Positions 4,597 through 46,689 of a stretch of 50,636 nucleotides of DNA are shown here, piece by piece (position 1 is the stretch's first letter; each line of letters starts with the position of its first letter). Location: sequence record OR472545.1; one strand, 5' to 3'. The notes under the pieces were generated by a model. It saw only the letters and a list, made by a program, of their open reading frames with translations. It was not told where the DNA came from and did no database searches. This DNA is from Escherichia phage vB_EcoM_50EP. Both the position numbers and the translations under genes were made by a program.

Positions 4597-4609
4597 AGGA
4601 GCATTAACT

Positions 4610-5281
4610 ATGGCACTTCCTAACGGTTCCCAAATCTTTATTGAGCAGACCCGATCCGCTACTGAAATTGACGCAAGCAAAGTAAGCAACGCGGATGATC
4701 CGGTAGCAACTGTTACATCGACTACTGGCATTGTGAAAGGCGATTACGTCCTGGTGCTGGAAAGCGTATGGGCTGCATTTAAAAACCGCGTAATGCGCGT
4801 AAAAGAAGTGGTTAGCGACACATCAATCACGCTTGAAGGCGACAAGAACACTTCCACGGCTGACCTTAACAAGTTCCCCGCTGGCGGAGCCTCCACCTTC
4901 GTTAAGATCGAAAGCTGGATTGAGATTCCATGCGTGAGCGACATCGCAAAATCTGGTGGCGAGCAGCAGTTCTATACCAAGCAGTGTCTTTCAGATGACC
5001 GTGAAAAGCAGATCCCGACCTTTAAATCTGCGACGTCCATCGCGTATACGTTCGACTTCGACTACTCCAACCCAATCACGCAGCTTCTGATTGGTTACGA
5101 CGAAGACGGCAAGACGCGCGCTATGCGAATGTTTGTACCGAAGGCAAGCTATCCGATCCGCACCTTCTCTGGTACGCCATCTTTCGATGACATCCCTAAC
5201 ACGGTGATGAACGAAGATGAAACGACCATCCTGACCATCTCGCTTGATGGCAAATACACGCACATGAAAGAATCTGAGTAA
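4610..5281 (+). CDS. major tail protein
   Basis: 223-aa ORF with AAGGAG RBS, directly upstream of the chaperone/frameshift pair and tape measure; terminator downstream. Confidence 0.5.
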   Translation: MALPNGSQIFIEQTRSATEIDASKVSNADDPVATVTSTTGIVKGDYVLVLESVWAAFKNRVMRVKEVVSDTSITLEGDKNTSTADLNKFPAGGASTFVKIESWIEIPCVSDIAKSGGEQQFYTKQCLSDDREKQIPTFKSATSIAYTFDFDYSNPITQLLIGYDEDGKTRAMRMFVPKASYPIRTFSGTPSFDDIPNTVMNEDETTILTISLDGKYTHMKESE

Positions 5282-5286
5282 TGCAA

Positions 5287-5308
5287 GGGGGCTATTGCCC
5301 CCTTTTTC
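5287..5308 (+). terminator. rho-independent terminator
   Basis: GGGGGC-TATT-GCCCCC hairpin + T-run. Confidence 0.6.
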
Positions 5309-5353
5309 TATTTGTGATTTAATATCACCAATTCAAACAAAGAGGAAAAAACC

Positions 5354-5671
5354 ATGAGCTTTAAAGTAACCCTATCTGAACGCCTGCCAGACTTCCCGCT
5401 TCCGGTTAAATTCGTATTGCCGAACGGCGTTGAAGCTTCGTTTTCATTCACTGTCAAGGCGCTAACGTCATCCGAACTTAACGCCACGCTGAAAAATGCA
5501 GAAAAACAGACTGGCGCTCAGTTTGTAAAATCCCTGGCTAGCGGGTGGGAACTTGAGGACGAGTTCAATGATGAAAACATCAATAAGCTTGTTGATAGTT
5601 ACCCTGCCGTTGTTGGTGGCCTGATCTCAACCTACACTCAAGCGCTGGCTGGCTACCGAGTAAAAAACTAA
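5354..5671 (+). CDS. tail assembly chaperone (lambda G-like)
   Basis: 105-aa ORF immediately upstream of tape measure, ends in slippery A_AAA_AAC. Confidence 0.55.
   Translation: MSFKVTLSERLPDFPLPVKFVLPNGVEASFSFTVKALTSSELNATLKNAEKQTGAQFVKSLASGWELEDEFNDENINKLVDSYPAVVGGLISTYTQALAGYRVKN
5662..5668 (+). other. programmed -1 ribosomal frameshift slippery heptamer A_AAA_AAC
   Basis: heptamer in zero frame two codons before the G-like stop; -1 frame stays open from 5644 to 5982. Confidence 0.5.
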
Positions 5672-5982
5672 AACGGGCGGTCGAGCTATTATTCAGGCGA
5701 GCGCCCACCGACTCAGAGCTTGAGGCATACGGATTAACCCGTGAAGACTACGACAACGAAGAGCCGGAGATATTGCAGTTCGACGAGGAAACATACCAGT
5801 CATGGGAAGTATTCACCGCGATGCAAACGCAATGGAGATCTGCCGGAGCCGGAGCCTACGGGCTTGATTATAATGTCTTGCCTATGCTATTTCGAATCTA
5901 TAAAATAGATTGTGAAGAAATGGCCTTAAATGATGTGCGTGTGATGGAAGCGGAAGCGCTTAAGCAGATGCACAAAAAATAA
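5668..5982 (+). CDS. T-like extension of tail assembly chaperone (G-T fusion via -1 frameshift)
   Basis: -1 frame relative to 5354..5671 has no stop between slip site and 5982; no independent ATG or RBS (track ORF begins with TTG). Confidence 0.45.
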   Translation, partial: LKRAVELLFRRAPTDSELEAYGLTREDYDNEEPEILQFDEETYQSWEVFTAMQTQWRSAGAGAYGLDYNVLPMLFRIYKIDCEEMALNDVRVMEAEALKQMHKK

Positions 5983-5983
5983 T

Positions 5984-6006
5984 AGCGCCTACGGGCGCTT
6001 TTTTCG
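5984..6006 (+). terminator. rho-independent terminator
   Basis: AGCGCC-TACG-GGCGCT + T6. Confidence 0.55.
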
Positions 6007-6018
6007 TATGGGGGTTTT

Positions 6019-8931
6019 ATGACAGATAAATTTGCAGGGCTATCGCTTGGGGTTGACGTATCCCAGGTTGATGCGGCGGTTAAATCTCTGGATGACTTAT
6101 CCAGGGCGAACAACACAGCCGGAAAGAGCTTTGACAATTTCATTGATGCTGAGCAAGTAGCAAAGCAGAAGATGAAAGAGTTCAACAACGAGGTTAAGCG
6201 CCAGAAGAAAGAATTTGCCGACGTAGAGAAAGCCATTGATCCTACAATCGGAAAAATGCGCCAGTTGCAGAAGGCGAGCGTTGACCTGGATAACCTCTGG
6301 AGTAAAGGCCTCGTTCCAGACGCCGAGTTCTTCAATCTGTCAAGCATGATTGAAACTCAGATCAATGCGCTTAACCGATCCAAGATGGCGCTGACCGAAG
6401 AAGGCCGTGCGGCTATGGCTAACTCAAAAGCCAAAGAGGCGGCAACAAAGGACGCTGACAGGTTCCTTAAATCACTGCAAGAACAAGCTAACGCTGCGAC
6501 AATGACCAAGACTGAGCTTCTCGAATTGAAGGCGGCACAGCTTGGCGTATCGACTCAGGCCGCACCTTTAATTGCAGCGATGAACAAGCAGACTGTAGCG
6601 ACAAATGCGGCTGGCCTTTCCGCTGGCGAGTACAAGAACGCGCTGCGCATCTTGCCAATGCAGATCACTGACGTTGTTACCTCCCTTGCTTCCGGTATGC
6701 CTGTATGGCTGGTTGCAATCCAGCAGGGCGGGCAGATCAAGGATTCGTTCGGCGGTGTTGGGAATACGTTTAAAGTTTTGCTTTCTTACCTTAATCCGGT
6801 AACGGTTGGTATGGGCGCTATGGGTATCGCACTTGCTGGCCTTGCTAAAGCTGGTTACGACTCCTACCGCTCCATCACAGATATGAAAAACGCCTTGATT
6901 GAGACTGGCGGATTTGCAGCGGCGAGCGCGGCGGACCTTGACCAGATCGCAAACAAAATTGCAGACACCAGCAACGCGACTATCGGATCTGTGCGAGAAA
7001 TTGCCACTGAGCTTGCAAAAAGCGGTAAGTACACTCAGGACCAAATCAGGAATATCACCCGCGCCACCGCTGAATGGTCAGCCGCAACGGGCCGAGCTAC
7101 GAGCGACATTATCAGTGACTTTGGCAAGATTGCAGATGATCCGGTGAAAGGGCTTGCGAAGCTGAATGAGCAATACAACTTCCTGGAGAAAGGCCAACTG
7201 ACCTATATCAACGGGATTGTTAAAACCAAGGGCGAAACCGAAGCCGTGACGGAGGCGACCAAGCTGTTTGCTGACACCATGGAAGAACGCATGAGCAAGA
7301 TTGCAGGTACTGCAACGCCGCTTGAGAAAATGTGGACCGACATTAAGAAATGGTCATCCGACGCCTGGGGGTGGGTTGGCGATCATACGCTTGGTGCTCT
7401 AAACCTCATAATTGACGTGGTTAGCGGTACGGTGATTCAGGTAAAAATGATTCTCGCCAAAGGTGACGAGTACATTTCTAACTTTATTGCCTCAGCAATC
7501 AAGGCAACGCAAAGCCTGCCTGGTATGAGTGATTTCGGTAAGGATATTCTCAACGAACAGCAGACTATCGTTAAGAACTCCAAAGACACCTATGACAGCC
7601 TCGCAAAAGATCTGGACGTGATTAACGCGCGAGTAGAAAAGGGCGAAATGGGTTACATCAACGCTCTCAAGAACCGACGCGATATGGAGAAGCAATACAG
7701 CAAGGAGACAAAGGAGGCTGTAGAGAAGGAAGCAAAAGCCATTGAAGAGCAGAACAGGAAGAAAACTAAGAGAAGCGGCGCAGTAACCAAGGGCGCTACG
7801 GAACAGCTTGATAAAGAACTTTACGTTCTCAAAGCTCAGCTTAAAGTTTTAGAAGATCACAAGTCGATTAACGACAAGATCTCAACACAGCGCCGTGCTT
7901 TGTGGGCTACAGAGGCTCAGATTTCAATCCTCCAGGATGCACAGAGTAAGCGCAAGCTGACCAACGAGGAAAAAGCATTGCTAGCCAGTCAGCAAAAGGT
8001 GCTTTCGTTAGCGAAGGAGAAAGCAGAGCTTGGTGATCAGATTGTTAAGCAGGAGCAGATCAACAAACTGAATGACGAATCAATGAAGTTCATCATGCAA
8101 ATTGACGCAGCGAGCAAAAGCCTTAACGCCACGCGCGCCATGGGTACACTTGAGGCAGAACGCCAGATTCAGCTTGAGAAGATCCGAGCGGATTACATGT
8201 CTAAGGGCGGCGGTCAGGATGATGAAGCTCTCAAGAAAATGATTGACAAGCAGAACGAGTATTACGCCAACGAGGATGAGAAGCGCGGAGACTGGCTTGC
8301 AGGCGCGCAACGTGCATTTGAAGACTACGGCGAAAGCGCAACGGATATGTACACCAACGTAGGCAACATCGCAGCTAACGCCCTGAACGGTTTGTCTGAC
8401 ATGATGACTGAGTTCTTGATGACGGGCCAGGCCAACTTTGCCGACTTTGCAAAGAGTATTATCAGCCAGATTATTAAGATGATCACGCAGATGGTAATCT
8501 TTAACTCACTGTCAGGTATGATGGGCGGTGGCAGCGGTAAGGGGTTCTCCTTCGCTAACTCAGGATGGTTCGCCACTGGCGGATATACCGGAGACGGCGG
8601 AAAGTATGAGCCAGCGGGCACAGTTCATAAAGGTGAATTTGTCATGACCAAGGAAGCTACCAAGCGAATTGGAGTCGATAACCTTTATCGAATGATGCGC
8701 GGTTATGCGAATGGTGGGATGGTTGGTGGAACTTCAAGCGGTGGCGGCGGTGGCGGCGCAATCATGGCTGGCGGAGTGACAATCGGAAGCATCCCTGTTA
8801 GCATCAATAACGGAAGCGATCCGAAGGGCATGGAGCAGGGCGTGAAAATGATTTTTAAGCAAATGATTCAGGAATCATGTTCCCAGGGTGGCGAAGTTTA
8901 CAATTACATCAACGGAAAAGCAGGAGCGTAA
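6019..8931 (+). CDS. tail tape measure protein
   Basis: 970 aa, coiled-coil-rich, Gly-rich C-terminus, located after G/GT pair. Confidence 0.8.
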
Positions 8932-29289: not shown

Positions 29290-29772
29290 ATGAGCATAAA
29301 GAATAAGGTTATTGGCTCCGCTGTTGCTGGGGCTTTGGCAATATCAGTTCCGTTTCTGAATGAATATGAGGGGGTTGAGTACAGGCCATACAAGGATGTT
29401 GCAGGGGTGTGGACGGTTTGCGCTGGTATCACTGGCTCAGATGTTGTTCTCGGTAAGGTTTACACTCAGCGAGAATGTGACGCCCTCCTTGTGAAGCATT
29501 TATCAATTCACCAAAAGGCCGTAGATTCTGCGCTAAAGGTGGATGTTCCCGTAAGTACCAGGGCAGCGCTATACTCTCTTAGCTTTAACATTGGCGCAAA
29601 TGCAATGAGAAAATCAACTGTTATCAGGCGCATGAATAGTGGCGACCTAAAGGGTGGGTGCAATGCATTCTCCATGTGGAATAAGATTACAGTTAACGGA
29701 AAGAAAGTGGTCAGCAAGGGCTTGGTTAACAGGCGCAACGGGGAGATTGAATTATGTTTAAAGGAATTGTGA
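29290..29772 (+). CDS. SAR endolysin (T4-lysozyme-type muramidase)
   Basis: N-terminal Gly/Ala-rich signal-anchor-release-like segment, E...D...T catalytic pattern. Confidence 0.65.
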   Translation: MSIKNKVIGSAVAGALAISVPFLNEYEGVEYRPYKDVAGVWTVCAGITGSDVVLGKVYTQRECDALLVKHLSIHQKAVDSALKVDVPVSTRAALYSLSFNIGANAMRKSTVIRRMNSGDLKGGCNAFSMWNKITVNGKKVVSKGLVNRRNGEIELCLKEL

Positions 29773-46152: not shown

Positions 46153-46689
46153 ATGAAAGACGAAAACTTCACCAGTCACGCGAACGAGAAGGTTCGAATC
46201 GGTAACTTCAAAGAGCTATACAATAAAAAGTATGGCGACATTGCCAACCTGAACCATCGTCACCCAATGACGCCTGAGACTGTATTCAACCTTGCGGTTA
46301 AATATTTCTCATGGGCCGAGGATCAGGCAATTAAGGCAATCGAAACGGCGAGCTTCCAGGGCGTTGTCACTGAGAACCTAGTGCACAAGCCGCGAGTGTT
46401 CACGCTCAACGGCTTCCAGCTTTATTGCGGCGTTACCTCCGGTGCGATCCAAAGCTGGCGCGCGTCGCCTGGATTCTCTGAGGTAATGGAGTTCATCGAC
46501 TCAGTAATTATTGAACAGAAATATCAGTTAGCTGCGTCCAACCTTATCAACGCAGGATTCGTAGGCAAAGACATTGGTATCGACAAGGCGGCAGAAGTGA
46601 ACGTGCAGAACAACGTATCTGCTGGCGCGGTGTCCGTGACTACTGATGAATTTAAAGAAGCCGTTAAGGATATTTTGGGGGAATTATGA
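46153..46689 (+). CDS. terminase small subunit
   Basis: 178-aa ORF immediately upstream of and overlapping the large terminase. Confidence 0.55.
   Translation: MKDENFTSHANEKVRIGNFKELYNKKYGDIANLNHRHPMTPETVFNLAVKYFSWAEDQAIKAIETASFQGVVTENLVHKPRVFTLNGFQLYCGVTSGAIQSWRASPGFSEVMEFIDSVIIEQKYQLAASNLINAGFVGKDIGIDKAAEVNVQNNVSAGAVSVTTDEFKEAVKDILGEL

What the first reader, a model, noticed from the sequence alone, without database searches (positions are those of the whole stretch)
5354..5982. G/GT-type programmed -1 frameshift at A_AAA_AAC before the tape measure gene
The slippery heptamer at 5662-5668 lies two codons before the stop of the 105-aa chaperone ORF. The -1 frame is open from there to 5982 and has no start codon or RBS of its own (the track ORF begins with TTG). 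This matches the conserved tail assembly chaperone frameshift known from lambda G/GT and many other tailed phages, giving a predicted fusion of about 209 aa.
Basis: partly seen in the sequence, partly recalled or inferred. Interest (0 to 1): 0.4.

Follow-up and report, generated by a model that had tools for sequence, protein, structure and literature searches.

The report
Tail chaperone G/GT programmed frameshift
This T1-like E. coli phage carries the ordinary, long-known "slip back one base" signal that makes a short and a long form of the tail assembly chaperone just before the tape measure gene; it is real, but it is not new.

Summary
ORF 5354-5671 (105 aa, Pfam Phage_TAC_4) ends GTA AAA AAC TAA. 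The heptamer A_AAA_AAC (5662-5668) is in the X_XXY_YYZ register and directly abuts the stop. The -1 frame is open from 5599 to 5982 and has no start-type codon before TTG 5773. The predicted fusion is 209 aa, and its second half is a Pfam DUF1799 domain. The gene pair lies between the tail tube gene (4610-5281) and the tape measure gene (6019-8931). The window is a Drexlerviridae phage of genus Nouzillyvirus, 99.3% identical to phage PH1062 over the 1.5-kb stretch searched.

In 48 distinct related loci, including phage T1, the second ORF is always in the -1 frame. In 38 of them a canonical slippery heptamer sits directly against the stop. The T-frame peptides align without gaps from the first codon after the slip. 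Substitutions there fall mainly on third codon positions, even upstream of any possible start codon.

Homologous fusions are already annotated in the Klebsiella T1-like phage Skenny, and a 210-aa full-length entry exists for phage Solomon. A hairpin 6 nt downstream (5675-5706) may stimulate the shift. It is statistically supported in T1-type relatives but not in this window.

Verdict: a genuine lambda G/GT-type -1 programmed frameshift, already known as a kind, and unannotated in this genus.

The parts
4610..5281 (+). Major tail (tube) protein gene, upstream neighbour
   Evidence: Pfam Phage_tail_3, E 1.5e-47; phrog_584 major tail protein
5285..5304 (+). Intrinsic-terminator-like hairpin plus T run between the tail tube gene and the chaperone gene
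   Evidence: 8-bp stem with 6 GC pairs, followed by TTTCTATTT. A terminator is annotated at the same place in T1 and Skenny
5341..5346 (+). Shine-Dalgarno sequence (AGAGGA) of the chaperone gene, 7 nt before the ATG
   Evidence: Sequence; duplex with the anti-SD -6.0 kcal/mol
5354..5671 (+). G-like tail assembly chaperone ORF, 105 aa (the product of normal decoding)
   Evidence: Translation; Pfam Phage_TAC_4, E 7.5e-23, covering residues 1-105
5662..5668 (+). Slippery heptamer A_AAA_AAC in X_XXY_YYZ register, the only such heptamer in the 5599-5671 overlap
   Evidence: [quoted passage not shown]
5669..5671 (+). Zero-frame stop codon UAA directly abutting the heptamer; possible part of the signal (inferred)
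   Evidence: A canonical heptamer abuts the stop in 38 of 48 related loci (the other 10 have a lysine-codon site within two codons of it), and the stop varies between UAA, UGA and UAG. Lambda has 5 sense codons in between
5675..5706 (+). Hairpin 6 nt downstream of the heptamer (GGGCG/CGCCC plus UCG/CGA); candidate stimulator, weakly supported in this window
   Evidence: -15.4 kcal/mol; z -2.0 against dinucleotide shuffles but only z -1.4 against synonymous recodings. The equivalent hairpin is significant in T1-type relatives. 71% of cells are paired against 36-53% in slid controls, and 4 pairs show compensatory changes
5668..5982 (+). T-like extension in the -1 frame: 104 codons plus stop. It is translated only as the C-terminal half of the 209-aa GT fusion (5354-5668 joined to 5668-5982)
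   Evidence: Open frame; Pfam DUF1799, E 4e-13, on fusion residues 127-206 (nt ~5731-5970); phrog_17368 profile spans both halves; third-position substitution bias
5984..5999 (.). Bidirectional intrinsic-terminator-like hairpin between the chaperone unit and the tape measure gene
   Evidence: a terminator is annotated at the same place in T1 and Skenny
6019..8931 (+). Tape measure protein gene, downstream neighbour
   Evidence: Pfam TMP_2, E 6.7e-67, and Tape_meas_lam_C, E 1.2e-23; phrog_24

Best explanation
This is the tail assembly chaperone gene pair of a T1-like siphophage, expressed by -1 programmed ribosomal frameshifting. Most ribosomes that start at ATG 5354 decode to UAA 5669 and release the 105-aa G-like chaperone. 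A minority slip back one base while tRNA-Lys and tRNA-Asn occupy AAA AAC in the heptamer A_AAA_AAC (5662-5668), re-pairing with AAA AAA. These ribosomes read CUA next and continue to 5982, which gives a 209-aa GT-like fusion. Its C-terminal half is the DUF1799 domain.

By analogy with lambda (inferred, not shown here), the shared N-terminal domain coats the tape measure protein, and the rarer T domain recruits the tail tube protein. The frameshift would thus fix the ratio of the two forms, and neither form would end up in the virion.

The abutting stop codon and the hairpin 6 nt downstream may slow the ribosome on the slip site and set the efficiency (inferred). A_AAA_AAC is a weak shifter in E. 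coli, which fits a low-ratio product.
For: - Sequence anatomy matches.
- Domain identities and gene order tube - G - T - tape measure are as expected.
- The window belongs to Drexlerviridae/Nouzillyvirus.
- tblastn of the fusion finds 1150 phage records; 1017 cover at least 80% of it, and in the rows listed these matches are in two pieces.
- In 48 of 48 distinct loci T is in the -1 frame. In 38 a canonical heptamer abuts the stop, and the other 10 have Lys-codon A_AAG or A_AAA_G sites there. Phage T1 itself has A_AAA_AAC UAA.
- T-frame peptides align ungapped from the first post-slip codon, while the first possible start codon wanders from codon 5 to codon 56.
- Substitutions against relatives fall mainly on codon position 3 in the T frame, including the 35 codons upstream of any start codon. 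Against LF82-40 the counts by position are 7/6/18.
- Gene callers and annotators pick inconsistent T starts.
- The join is annotated in Klebsiella phage Skenny and described in PMC6763657.
- A full-length 210-aa chaperone of phage Solomon matches the model at TM 0.78.
Against: - No protein-level evidence exists for this phage or, as far as I could find, for any member of this TAC_4/DUF1799 family.
- TTG 5773 has a GGAG 3 nt upstream, so some independent initiation of a truncated T cannot be excluded.
- The hairpin is not significant in this window once the amino-acid sequence is controlled for (9% of recodings are as stable).
- RNAalifold finds no consensus structure over 18 family members.
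- No upstream SD-like stimulator is present.
- The lambda-derived roles of the two domains are extrapolated across different Pfam families.
Confidence: 0.9

Rival explanations
1. The downstream ORF is an independent small gene, translated from its own start (TTG 5773 or ATG 5821, as annotated in PH1062) and giving a free 53-69-aa T-like protein. On this reading the heptamer is coincidental.
For: - GenBank records of close relatives annotate a separate CDS: PH1062 uses the position equivalent to 5821, and CJ19 starts 18 nt after the G stop.
- TTG 5773 has a GGAG upstream, -6.6 kcal/mol.
- Some relatives have ATG at T codon 8, and many database T proteins start there.
Against: - The DUF1799 match starts at about 5731, and family-wide conservation starts at 5668. 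Both lie upstream of every start codon in this window.
- Purifying selection is visible in codons 1-35.
- The position of the first start codon is not conserved, ranging from codon 5 to codon 56.
- The GGAG-TTG spacing is 3 nt.
- The -1 frame relation and the slippery site at the stop are kept in 48 of 48 loci, which an independent gene would not need.
Confidence: 0.05
2. The fusion is made by transcriptional slippage. RNA polymerase would drop one A (or add two) in the A6 run 5662-5667, producing a subpopulation of mRNAs in which G and T are in frame.
For: A run of six A residues is present. Transcriptional slippage on homopolymer runs is an established route to such fusions (general knowledge; reviewed in PMC5009743).
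Against: [quoted passage not shown]
- What is conserved is the X_XXY_YYZ register relative to the zero frame, and that matters only to the ribosome.
- A6 is shorter than the runs of about 8-9 or more usually needed by bacterial RNA polymerase (from my own knowledge, not tested).
Confidence: 0.03
3. The -1 ORF is a decaying remnant and no T-containing product is made in this phage.
For: None specific. Several RefSeq and GenBank records do not annotate T at all (tunus, aalborv, ESCO41 RefSeq).
Against: - The frame is intact over 104 codons in every relative.
- The Pfam domain hit is above threshold.
- Synonymous substitutions predominate (11 synonymous against 3 non-synonymous versus ESCO41).
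Confidence: 0.01

Closest known systems
Bacteriophage lambda G / GT tail assembly chaperones (Levin, Hendrix & Casjens 1993; Xu, Hendrix & Duda 2004, 2013, 2014; as summarised in PMC5009743)
   Same: - The position is the same: between the tail tube and tape measure genes.
- Two overlapping ORFs, with the second in the -1 frame.
- An X_XXY_YYZ heptamer ending in a Lys/Asn-type codon lies near the end of the first ORF.
- The long form is expected to be made at a low level.
   Different: - The sequence families differ: lambda G is Phage_TAC_2 and T is Phage_tail_T, whereas here they are Phage_TAC_4 and DUF1799.
- The lambda heptamer is G_GGA_AAG with 5 sense codons before the stop. Here it is A_AAA_AAC directly abutting the stop.
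- The proteins here are smaller: 105/209 aa against 140/~279 aa.
Annotated chaperone frameshift of T1-like Klebsiella phages (Skenny MK931444, 'tail assembly chaperone frameshift product'; Solomon 210-aa 'Tape measure chaperone')
   Same: - They are true homologues: 42-53% identity for each half, the same Pfam families and the same gene order including the flanking terminators.
[quoted passage not shown]
   Different: Webervirus has GCA AAA GUU UAA at the site. This is a Lys-codon A_AAA_G-type site, not a canonical heptamer.
Phage T1 genes ST40/ST39 (NC_005833)
   Same: The heptamer and stop are identical (A_AAA_AAC UAA). The frame relation, the flanking terminators and the position of the downstream hairpin are the same.
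   Different: - The RefSeq record annotates two separate CDSs, with ST39 starting 150 nt after the ST40 stop, and no join.
- The T1 hairpin is clearly beyond what the protein sequence imposes (z -3.5), unlike the one in this window (z -1.4).
E. coli dnaX -1 frameshift (A_AAA_AAG with an upstream SD-like element and a downstream hairpin)
   Same: It is a -1 tandem slip on an A-rich heptamer in E. coli, with a hairpin a few nucleotides downstream.
   Different: - No upstream SD-like element is present here (best -3.3 kcal/mol).
- The last base is C rather than G, which is less shift-prone in E. coli (PMC5009743).
- The outcome is an extension of the protein, not a truncation.

Membership tests
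G/GT-type tail assembly chaperone frameshift (functional class of Xu et al. 2004) | The gene pair lies directly between the major tail (tube) gene and the tape measure gene | tested here: met
   4610-5281 is Phage_tail_3; 6019-8931 is TMP_2 plus Tape_meas_lam_C
G/GT-type tail assembly chaperone frameshift (functional class of Xu et al. 2004) | The second ORF overlaps the end of the first in the -1 frame and lacks a conserved start of its own | tested here: met
   The -1 frame is open over 5599-5982. The first start-type codon is at codon 36. T is in the -1 frame in 48 of 48 loci, and the first start position varies from codon 5 to 56
G/GT-type tail assembly chaperone frameshift (functional class of Xu et al. 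2004) | A slippery sequence lies in the zero-frame register inside the overlap | tested here: met
   A_AAA_AAC at 5662-5668 is the only X_XXY_YYZ in the overlap
G/GT-type tail assembly chaperone frameshift (functional class of Xu et al. 2004) | The arrangement is conserved among homologues even where the sequence has diverged | tested here: met
   48 distinct loci down to 28-35% identity; five different canonical heptamers at the same position
G/GT-type tail assembly chaperone frameshift (functional class of Xu et al. 2004) | Both the short and the long product are made at a fixed ratio, both are required for tail assembly, and both are absent from virions | not testable with these tools
   Needs proteomics and genetics
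Pfam Phage_TAC_4 (PF08748) | Score above the gathering threshold of 21.1 bits | tested here: met
   81.5 bits, E 7.5e-23, residues 1-105. The T1 homologue scores 128.6 bits
Pfam DUF1799 (PF08809) | Score above the gathering threshold of 26 bits | tested here: met
   49.8 bits, E 4.2e-13, fusion residues 127-206
Lambda gpG (Pfam Phage_TAC_2, PF06894) and gpT (Phage_tail_T, PF06223) sequence families | Match to the family profile | tested here: not met
   The window proteins match neither profile at E <= 0.01, whereas lambda G and T match them at 9e-62 and 2e-14. The window pair is a functional analogue, not a member of these sequence families
dnaX-type stimulated -1 frameshift | SD-like element about 10 nt upstream of the heptamer | tested here: not met
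   The best anti-SD duplex in the 22 nt upstream is -3.3 kcal/mol
dnaX-type stimulated -1 frameshift | Stable stem-loop 5-9 nt downstream of the heptamer | tested here: inconclusive
   The hairpin 5675-5706 has a 6-nt spacer and -15.4 kcal/mol. Its z is -2.0 against shuffles but -1.4 against synonymous recodings. It is supported in relatives, but RNAalifold finds no consensus

The most novel reading that the evidence does not exclude
In the Phage_TAC_4/DUF1799 chaperone family the zero-frame stop codon may be an integral, selected part of the frameshift signal. A canonical heptamer abuts the stop in 38 of 48 distinct loci, across five different heptamers, all three stop codons and down to about 30% protein identity. 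The other 10 loci have a lysine-codon slip site within two codons of the stop. In the A_AAA_AAC subgroup a hairpin also lies 6-7 nt downstream. If competition between release factor and slippage at this 'shift-stop' site sets the G:GT ratio, the ratio would respond to termination efficiency in the host. Lambda would lack that tuning mechanism, because its heptamer is 15 nt from the stop.
Probability: 0.25. Interest if true: 0.35.

Novelty: already known. Interest (0 to 1): 0.12.

Why it matters
The main value is for annotation.
- No fetched Nouzillyvirus record (PH1062, ESCO41, CJ19) joins the two ORFs, nor do most other Drexlerviridae records fetched, including the T1 RefSeq entry.
- The T ORF is given arbitrary starts or omitted.
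- Both ORFs are often mislabelled 'tail length tape measure protein'.

Correct annotation gives a 105-aa chaperone and a 209-aa frameshift product.

In biological terms this is one more instance of a mechanism that is conserved across long-tailed phages. The one mildly interesting point is that the slippery heptamer, or in ten loci a lysine-codon site, always lies at the stop codon in this chaperone family. Such 'shift-stop' signals could easily be tested in reporter assays.

Tried and rejected
- RNAalifold on 18 Drexlerviridae sequences from the heptamer to +78 predicted no consensus pairs. The hairpin had to be named by hand and tested with controls.
- Rfam (E-value mode, 5300-6100) gave no match.
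- The PDB sequence search with the fusion gave no match at E <= 1.
- Single-sequence AlphaFold gave pLDDT 37 and was unusable. A 66-sequence alignment gave pLDDT 80.9.
- The search for homologous proteins returned only three T-only proteins. The exhaustive search was more useful.
- A search for an upstream SD-like stimulator found none.
- The other in-frame slippery heptamers near gene ends (29757, 46674) were considered as further frameshifts and rejected. In each case the downstream gene has its own ATG.
- Literature searches for a specific description of the frameshift in T1 or Nouzillyvirus found only the Skenny announcement. Xu et al. 2013 (PMC3762263) is not held.

Full report
**Observation.**
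- ATG 5354 is preceded by AGAGGA at 5341-5346. It opens a 105-codon frame that ends GTA AAA AAC TAA, with the stop at 5669-5671.
- Positions 5662-5668 read AAAAAAC in the register A_AAA_AAC, the classical X_XXY_YYZ pattern.
- The -1 frame is open from 5599 to the stop at 5980-5982.
- A tandem -1 slip resumes decoding at CUA 5668 and adds 104 residues, so the fusion is 209 aa.
- The first start-type codons in that frame after the slip are TTG 5773 (codon 36) and ATG 5821 (codon 52).
- One small correction: TTG 5773 does have a GGAG three bases upstream, so 'no RBS' is a little too strong.

**Is it more than chance?** The bare heptamer is not enriched: there are 14 copies in the window and 12.2 are expected. 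In the 50 long non-overlapping ORFs, in-frame X_XXY_YYZ heptamers occur at 34 of 13,133 codon positions. Only three lie within two codons of a stop and are followed by a long open -1 frame. The other two (29757, 46674) are ordinary overlaps in which the next gene has its own ATG. The case therefore rests on context and conservation.

**Identity of the parts.**
- The 105-aa product is a Pfam Phage_TAC_4 tail assembly chaperone (E 7.5e-23).
- The -1 extension carries Pfam DUF1799 (E 4e-13) on fusion residues 127-206. That corresponds to about nt 5731 onward, upstream of every possible start codon.
- PHROG profile phrog_17368 is 213 positions long. The G half matches positions 4-107 and the T half matches 109-211, so already-joined proteins appear to be among its members.
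- Upstream lies the tail tube gene (4610-5281, Phage_tail_3). Downstream lies the tape measure gene (6019-8931, TMP_2 plus Tape_meas_lam_C).
- Terminator-like hairpins sit at 5285-5304 and 5984-5999, as annotated in T1 and Skenny.

**Source of the window.** A 1.5-kb stretch of the window (4600-6100) is 99.3% identical to Escherichia phage PH1062 and 93% identical to ESCO41, both Drexlerviridae of genus Nouzillyvirus.

**Comparative evidence.**
- tblastn of the fusion finds 1150 phage records. In 1017 the match covers at least 80% of the fusion, and the rows listed show it in two pieces, that is, two frames.
- I fetched 48 distinct loci from GenBank phages, including T1, and from IMG/VR contigs. 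They run down to about 28-35% identity.
- T is in the -1 frame relative to G in all 48.
- In 38 a canonical heptamer lies directly against the G stop:

| Heptamer | Loci |
|---|---|
| A_AAA_AAC (T1 included) | 17 |
| G_GGA_AAC | 17 |
| U_UUA_AAC | 2 |
| G_GGA_AAG | 1 |
| A_AAG_GGU | 1 |

- The remaining 10 have lysine-codon sites of the A_AAG or A_AAA_G type within two codons of the stop. They are Webervirus (GCA AAA GUU/C UAA), Sf12 and Sabo. A_AAG is a known shift-prone motif in E. coli (PMC5009743).
- T-frame peptides align without gaps from the very first post-slip codon (L-[KR]-R-A...). The first available start codon, by contrast, varies from codon 5 to codon 56.
- Substitutions against relatives fall mainly on codon position 3 of the T frame, including the first 35 codons where no start codon exists. 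By codon position the counts are 3/0/6 against ESCO41, 10/3/15 against CJ19 and 7/6/18 against LF82-40.
- An exhaustive HMMER search of 1.84 billion representatives found 511 relatives. G-type proteins end at query residue 105. T-type proteins begin anywhere between query residues 87 and 157, which is the signature of gene callers guessing starts. Only one full-length protein appeared.

**Prior knowledge.**
- The join is annotated in Klebsiella phage Skenny as 'tail assembly chaperone frameshift product'. Its announcement describes a frameshift analogous to lambda G/GT (PMC6763657).
- A model of the fusion built with a 66-sequence alignment (pLDDT 80.9) matches the 210-aa 'Tape measure chaperone' of Klebsiella phage Solomon over its full length (TM 0.78, 50% identity).
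- The review PMC5009743 describes G-T frameshifting as widely conserved among long-tailed phages. [quoted passage not shown] That fits a low-abundance long form.
- No fetched Nouzillyvirus record, nor the T1 RefSeq record, joins the ORFs.

**Possible stimulators.**
- A hairpin at 5675-5706 starts 6 nt after the heptamer. It has -15.4 kcal/mol and z -2.0 against dinucleotide shuffles.
- The mean 40-nt folding energy across 42 loci has its minimum for windows that start 1-7 nt after the heptamer.
- A hairpin in the same columns occurs in T1, YSP2, Vc1, phiL, aalborv, LF82-40, SECphi4 and ChibiTotoro.
- For the named 9-pair helix, 71% of cells are paired against 36-53% in slid controls, and 4 pairs show compensatory changes.
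- Against synonymous recodings the hairpin is clearly non-random in T1-type phages (z -2.8 to -4.6). In this window it is not (z -1.4; 9% of recodings are as stable).
- RNAalifold finds no family-wide consensus, Rfam has no match, and there is no upstream SD-like element.
- The stop codon sits at the slip site in every locus: against a canonical heptamer in 38, and within two codons of a lysine-codon site in the other 10. Lambda has five sense codons between G_GGA_AAG and its stop. Whether the stop contributes to the signal is untested.

**Mechanism.**
- Shown by sequence and comparison: one initiation site, a slippery heptamer at the last two sense codons, and a conserved coding extension that can be reached only by a -1 shift.
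- Inferred: a tandem slip of tRNA-Lys and tRNA-Asn from AAA AAC to AAA AAA in a small fraction of ribosomes.
- Inferred from lambda: the G domain binds the tape measure protein, and the T domain recruits the tube protein.

**Rival explanations.**
- Independent initiation of T would cut off conserved, selected codons and does not explain the conserved frame and slip site.
- Transcriptional slippage does not explain relatives with only three identical bases in a row and a conserved ribosomal register.
- A decaying remnant is contradicted by the substitution pattern.

**Membership.** The locus meets every computable criterion of the G/GT functional class and belongs to Pfam Phage_TAC_4 and DUF1799. 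It is not a member of lambda's own G (Phage_TAC_2) and T (Phage_tail_T) sequence families. No solved structure resembles the model.

**Verdict.** This is a textbook mechanism in a family where it is already annotated, so novelty is low and the value is mainly in correcting annotation. The only mildly new thread is the invariant shift-stop arrangement, with a downstream hairpin in the A_AAA_AAC subgroup.

Noticed in passing
window 5285-5304 and 5984-5999: Intrinsic-terminator-like hairpins bracket the chaperone gene pair. One follows the tail tube gene and one (bidirectional) precedes the tape measure gene. T1 and Skenny records annotate terminators at the same two places, so transcription into the chaperone and tape measure genes may be attenuated.
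   Followed up: partly
L001 (PH1062), L002 (ESCO41 RefSeq), L064 (T1 RefSeq) and others: Both chaperone ORFs are labelled 'tail length tape measure protein', and PHROG families 569, 680 and 17368 carry that label. The start chosen for the T ORF differs from record to record, or the ORF is omitted. This looks like a label-propagation and gene-calling artefact of an unannotated frameshift.
   Followed up: partly
L004 707-718 (Klebsiella phage Skenny) and other Webervirus loci; L057 (Sf12); L060 (Sabo): These relatives lack a canonical X_XXY_YYZ heptamer at the homologous site. They read GCA AAA GUU/C UAA, A_AAG_GUC UAA and CAA AAG UAA. The shift there presumably uses a single tRNA-Lys slip on A_AAA_G or A_AAG. 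Where the Skenny annotators placed the join could not be read from the table.
   Followed up: partly
L065 173-793 (ENA contig NODE_101157, 811 nt, coverage 2.6): G and T domains lie in one continuous 206-aa ORF (P0017, both Pfam domains). About 11 residues of the usual G C-terminus are missing, and a TGA in another frame sits where the G stop would be. This is either a natural in-frame fusion or an assembly error.
   Followed up: partly
one search hit list (e.g. MG065679 Campylobacter phage A13a, MG065675 A118): Twenty-one records named 'Campylobacter phage' (two listed: 47.2 and 50.1 kb) carry this Drexlerviridae-type chaperone pair; the two listed are 56-59% identical to the window's. The host label looks doubtful for T1-like genomes.
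   Followed up: no
window 29757-29763 and 46674-46680: In-frame slippery-type heptamers (U_UUA_AAG, U_UUG_GGG) lie two codons before a stop and are followed by long open -1 frames. In both cases the downstream gene has its own ATG (29754 and 46686), so they are ordinary gene overlaps.
   Followed up: yes
fusion residues 84-114 (window ~5603-5697): The AlphaFold model (pLDDT 80.9) predicts a single long helix running across the frameshift junction. The last residues of G and the first of T would then form one structural element in the long form.
   Followed up: no
L038, L040-L042, L045-L048 (IMG/VR contigs of 90-107 kb): The same chaperone family with G_GGA_AAC abutting the stop occurs on contigs of about 100 kb. 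The family and its shift-stop arrangement therefore extend well beyond 50-kb T1-like phages. These loci mostly lack the downstream hairpin.
   Followed up: partly
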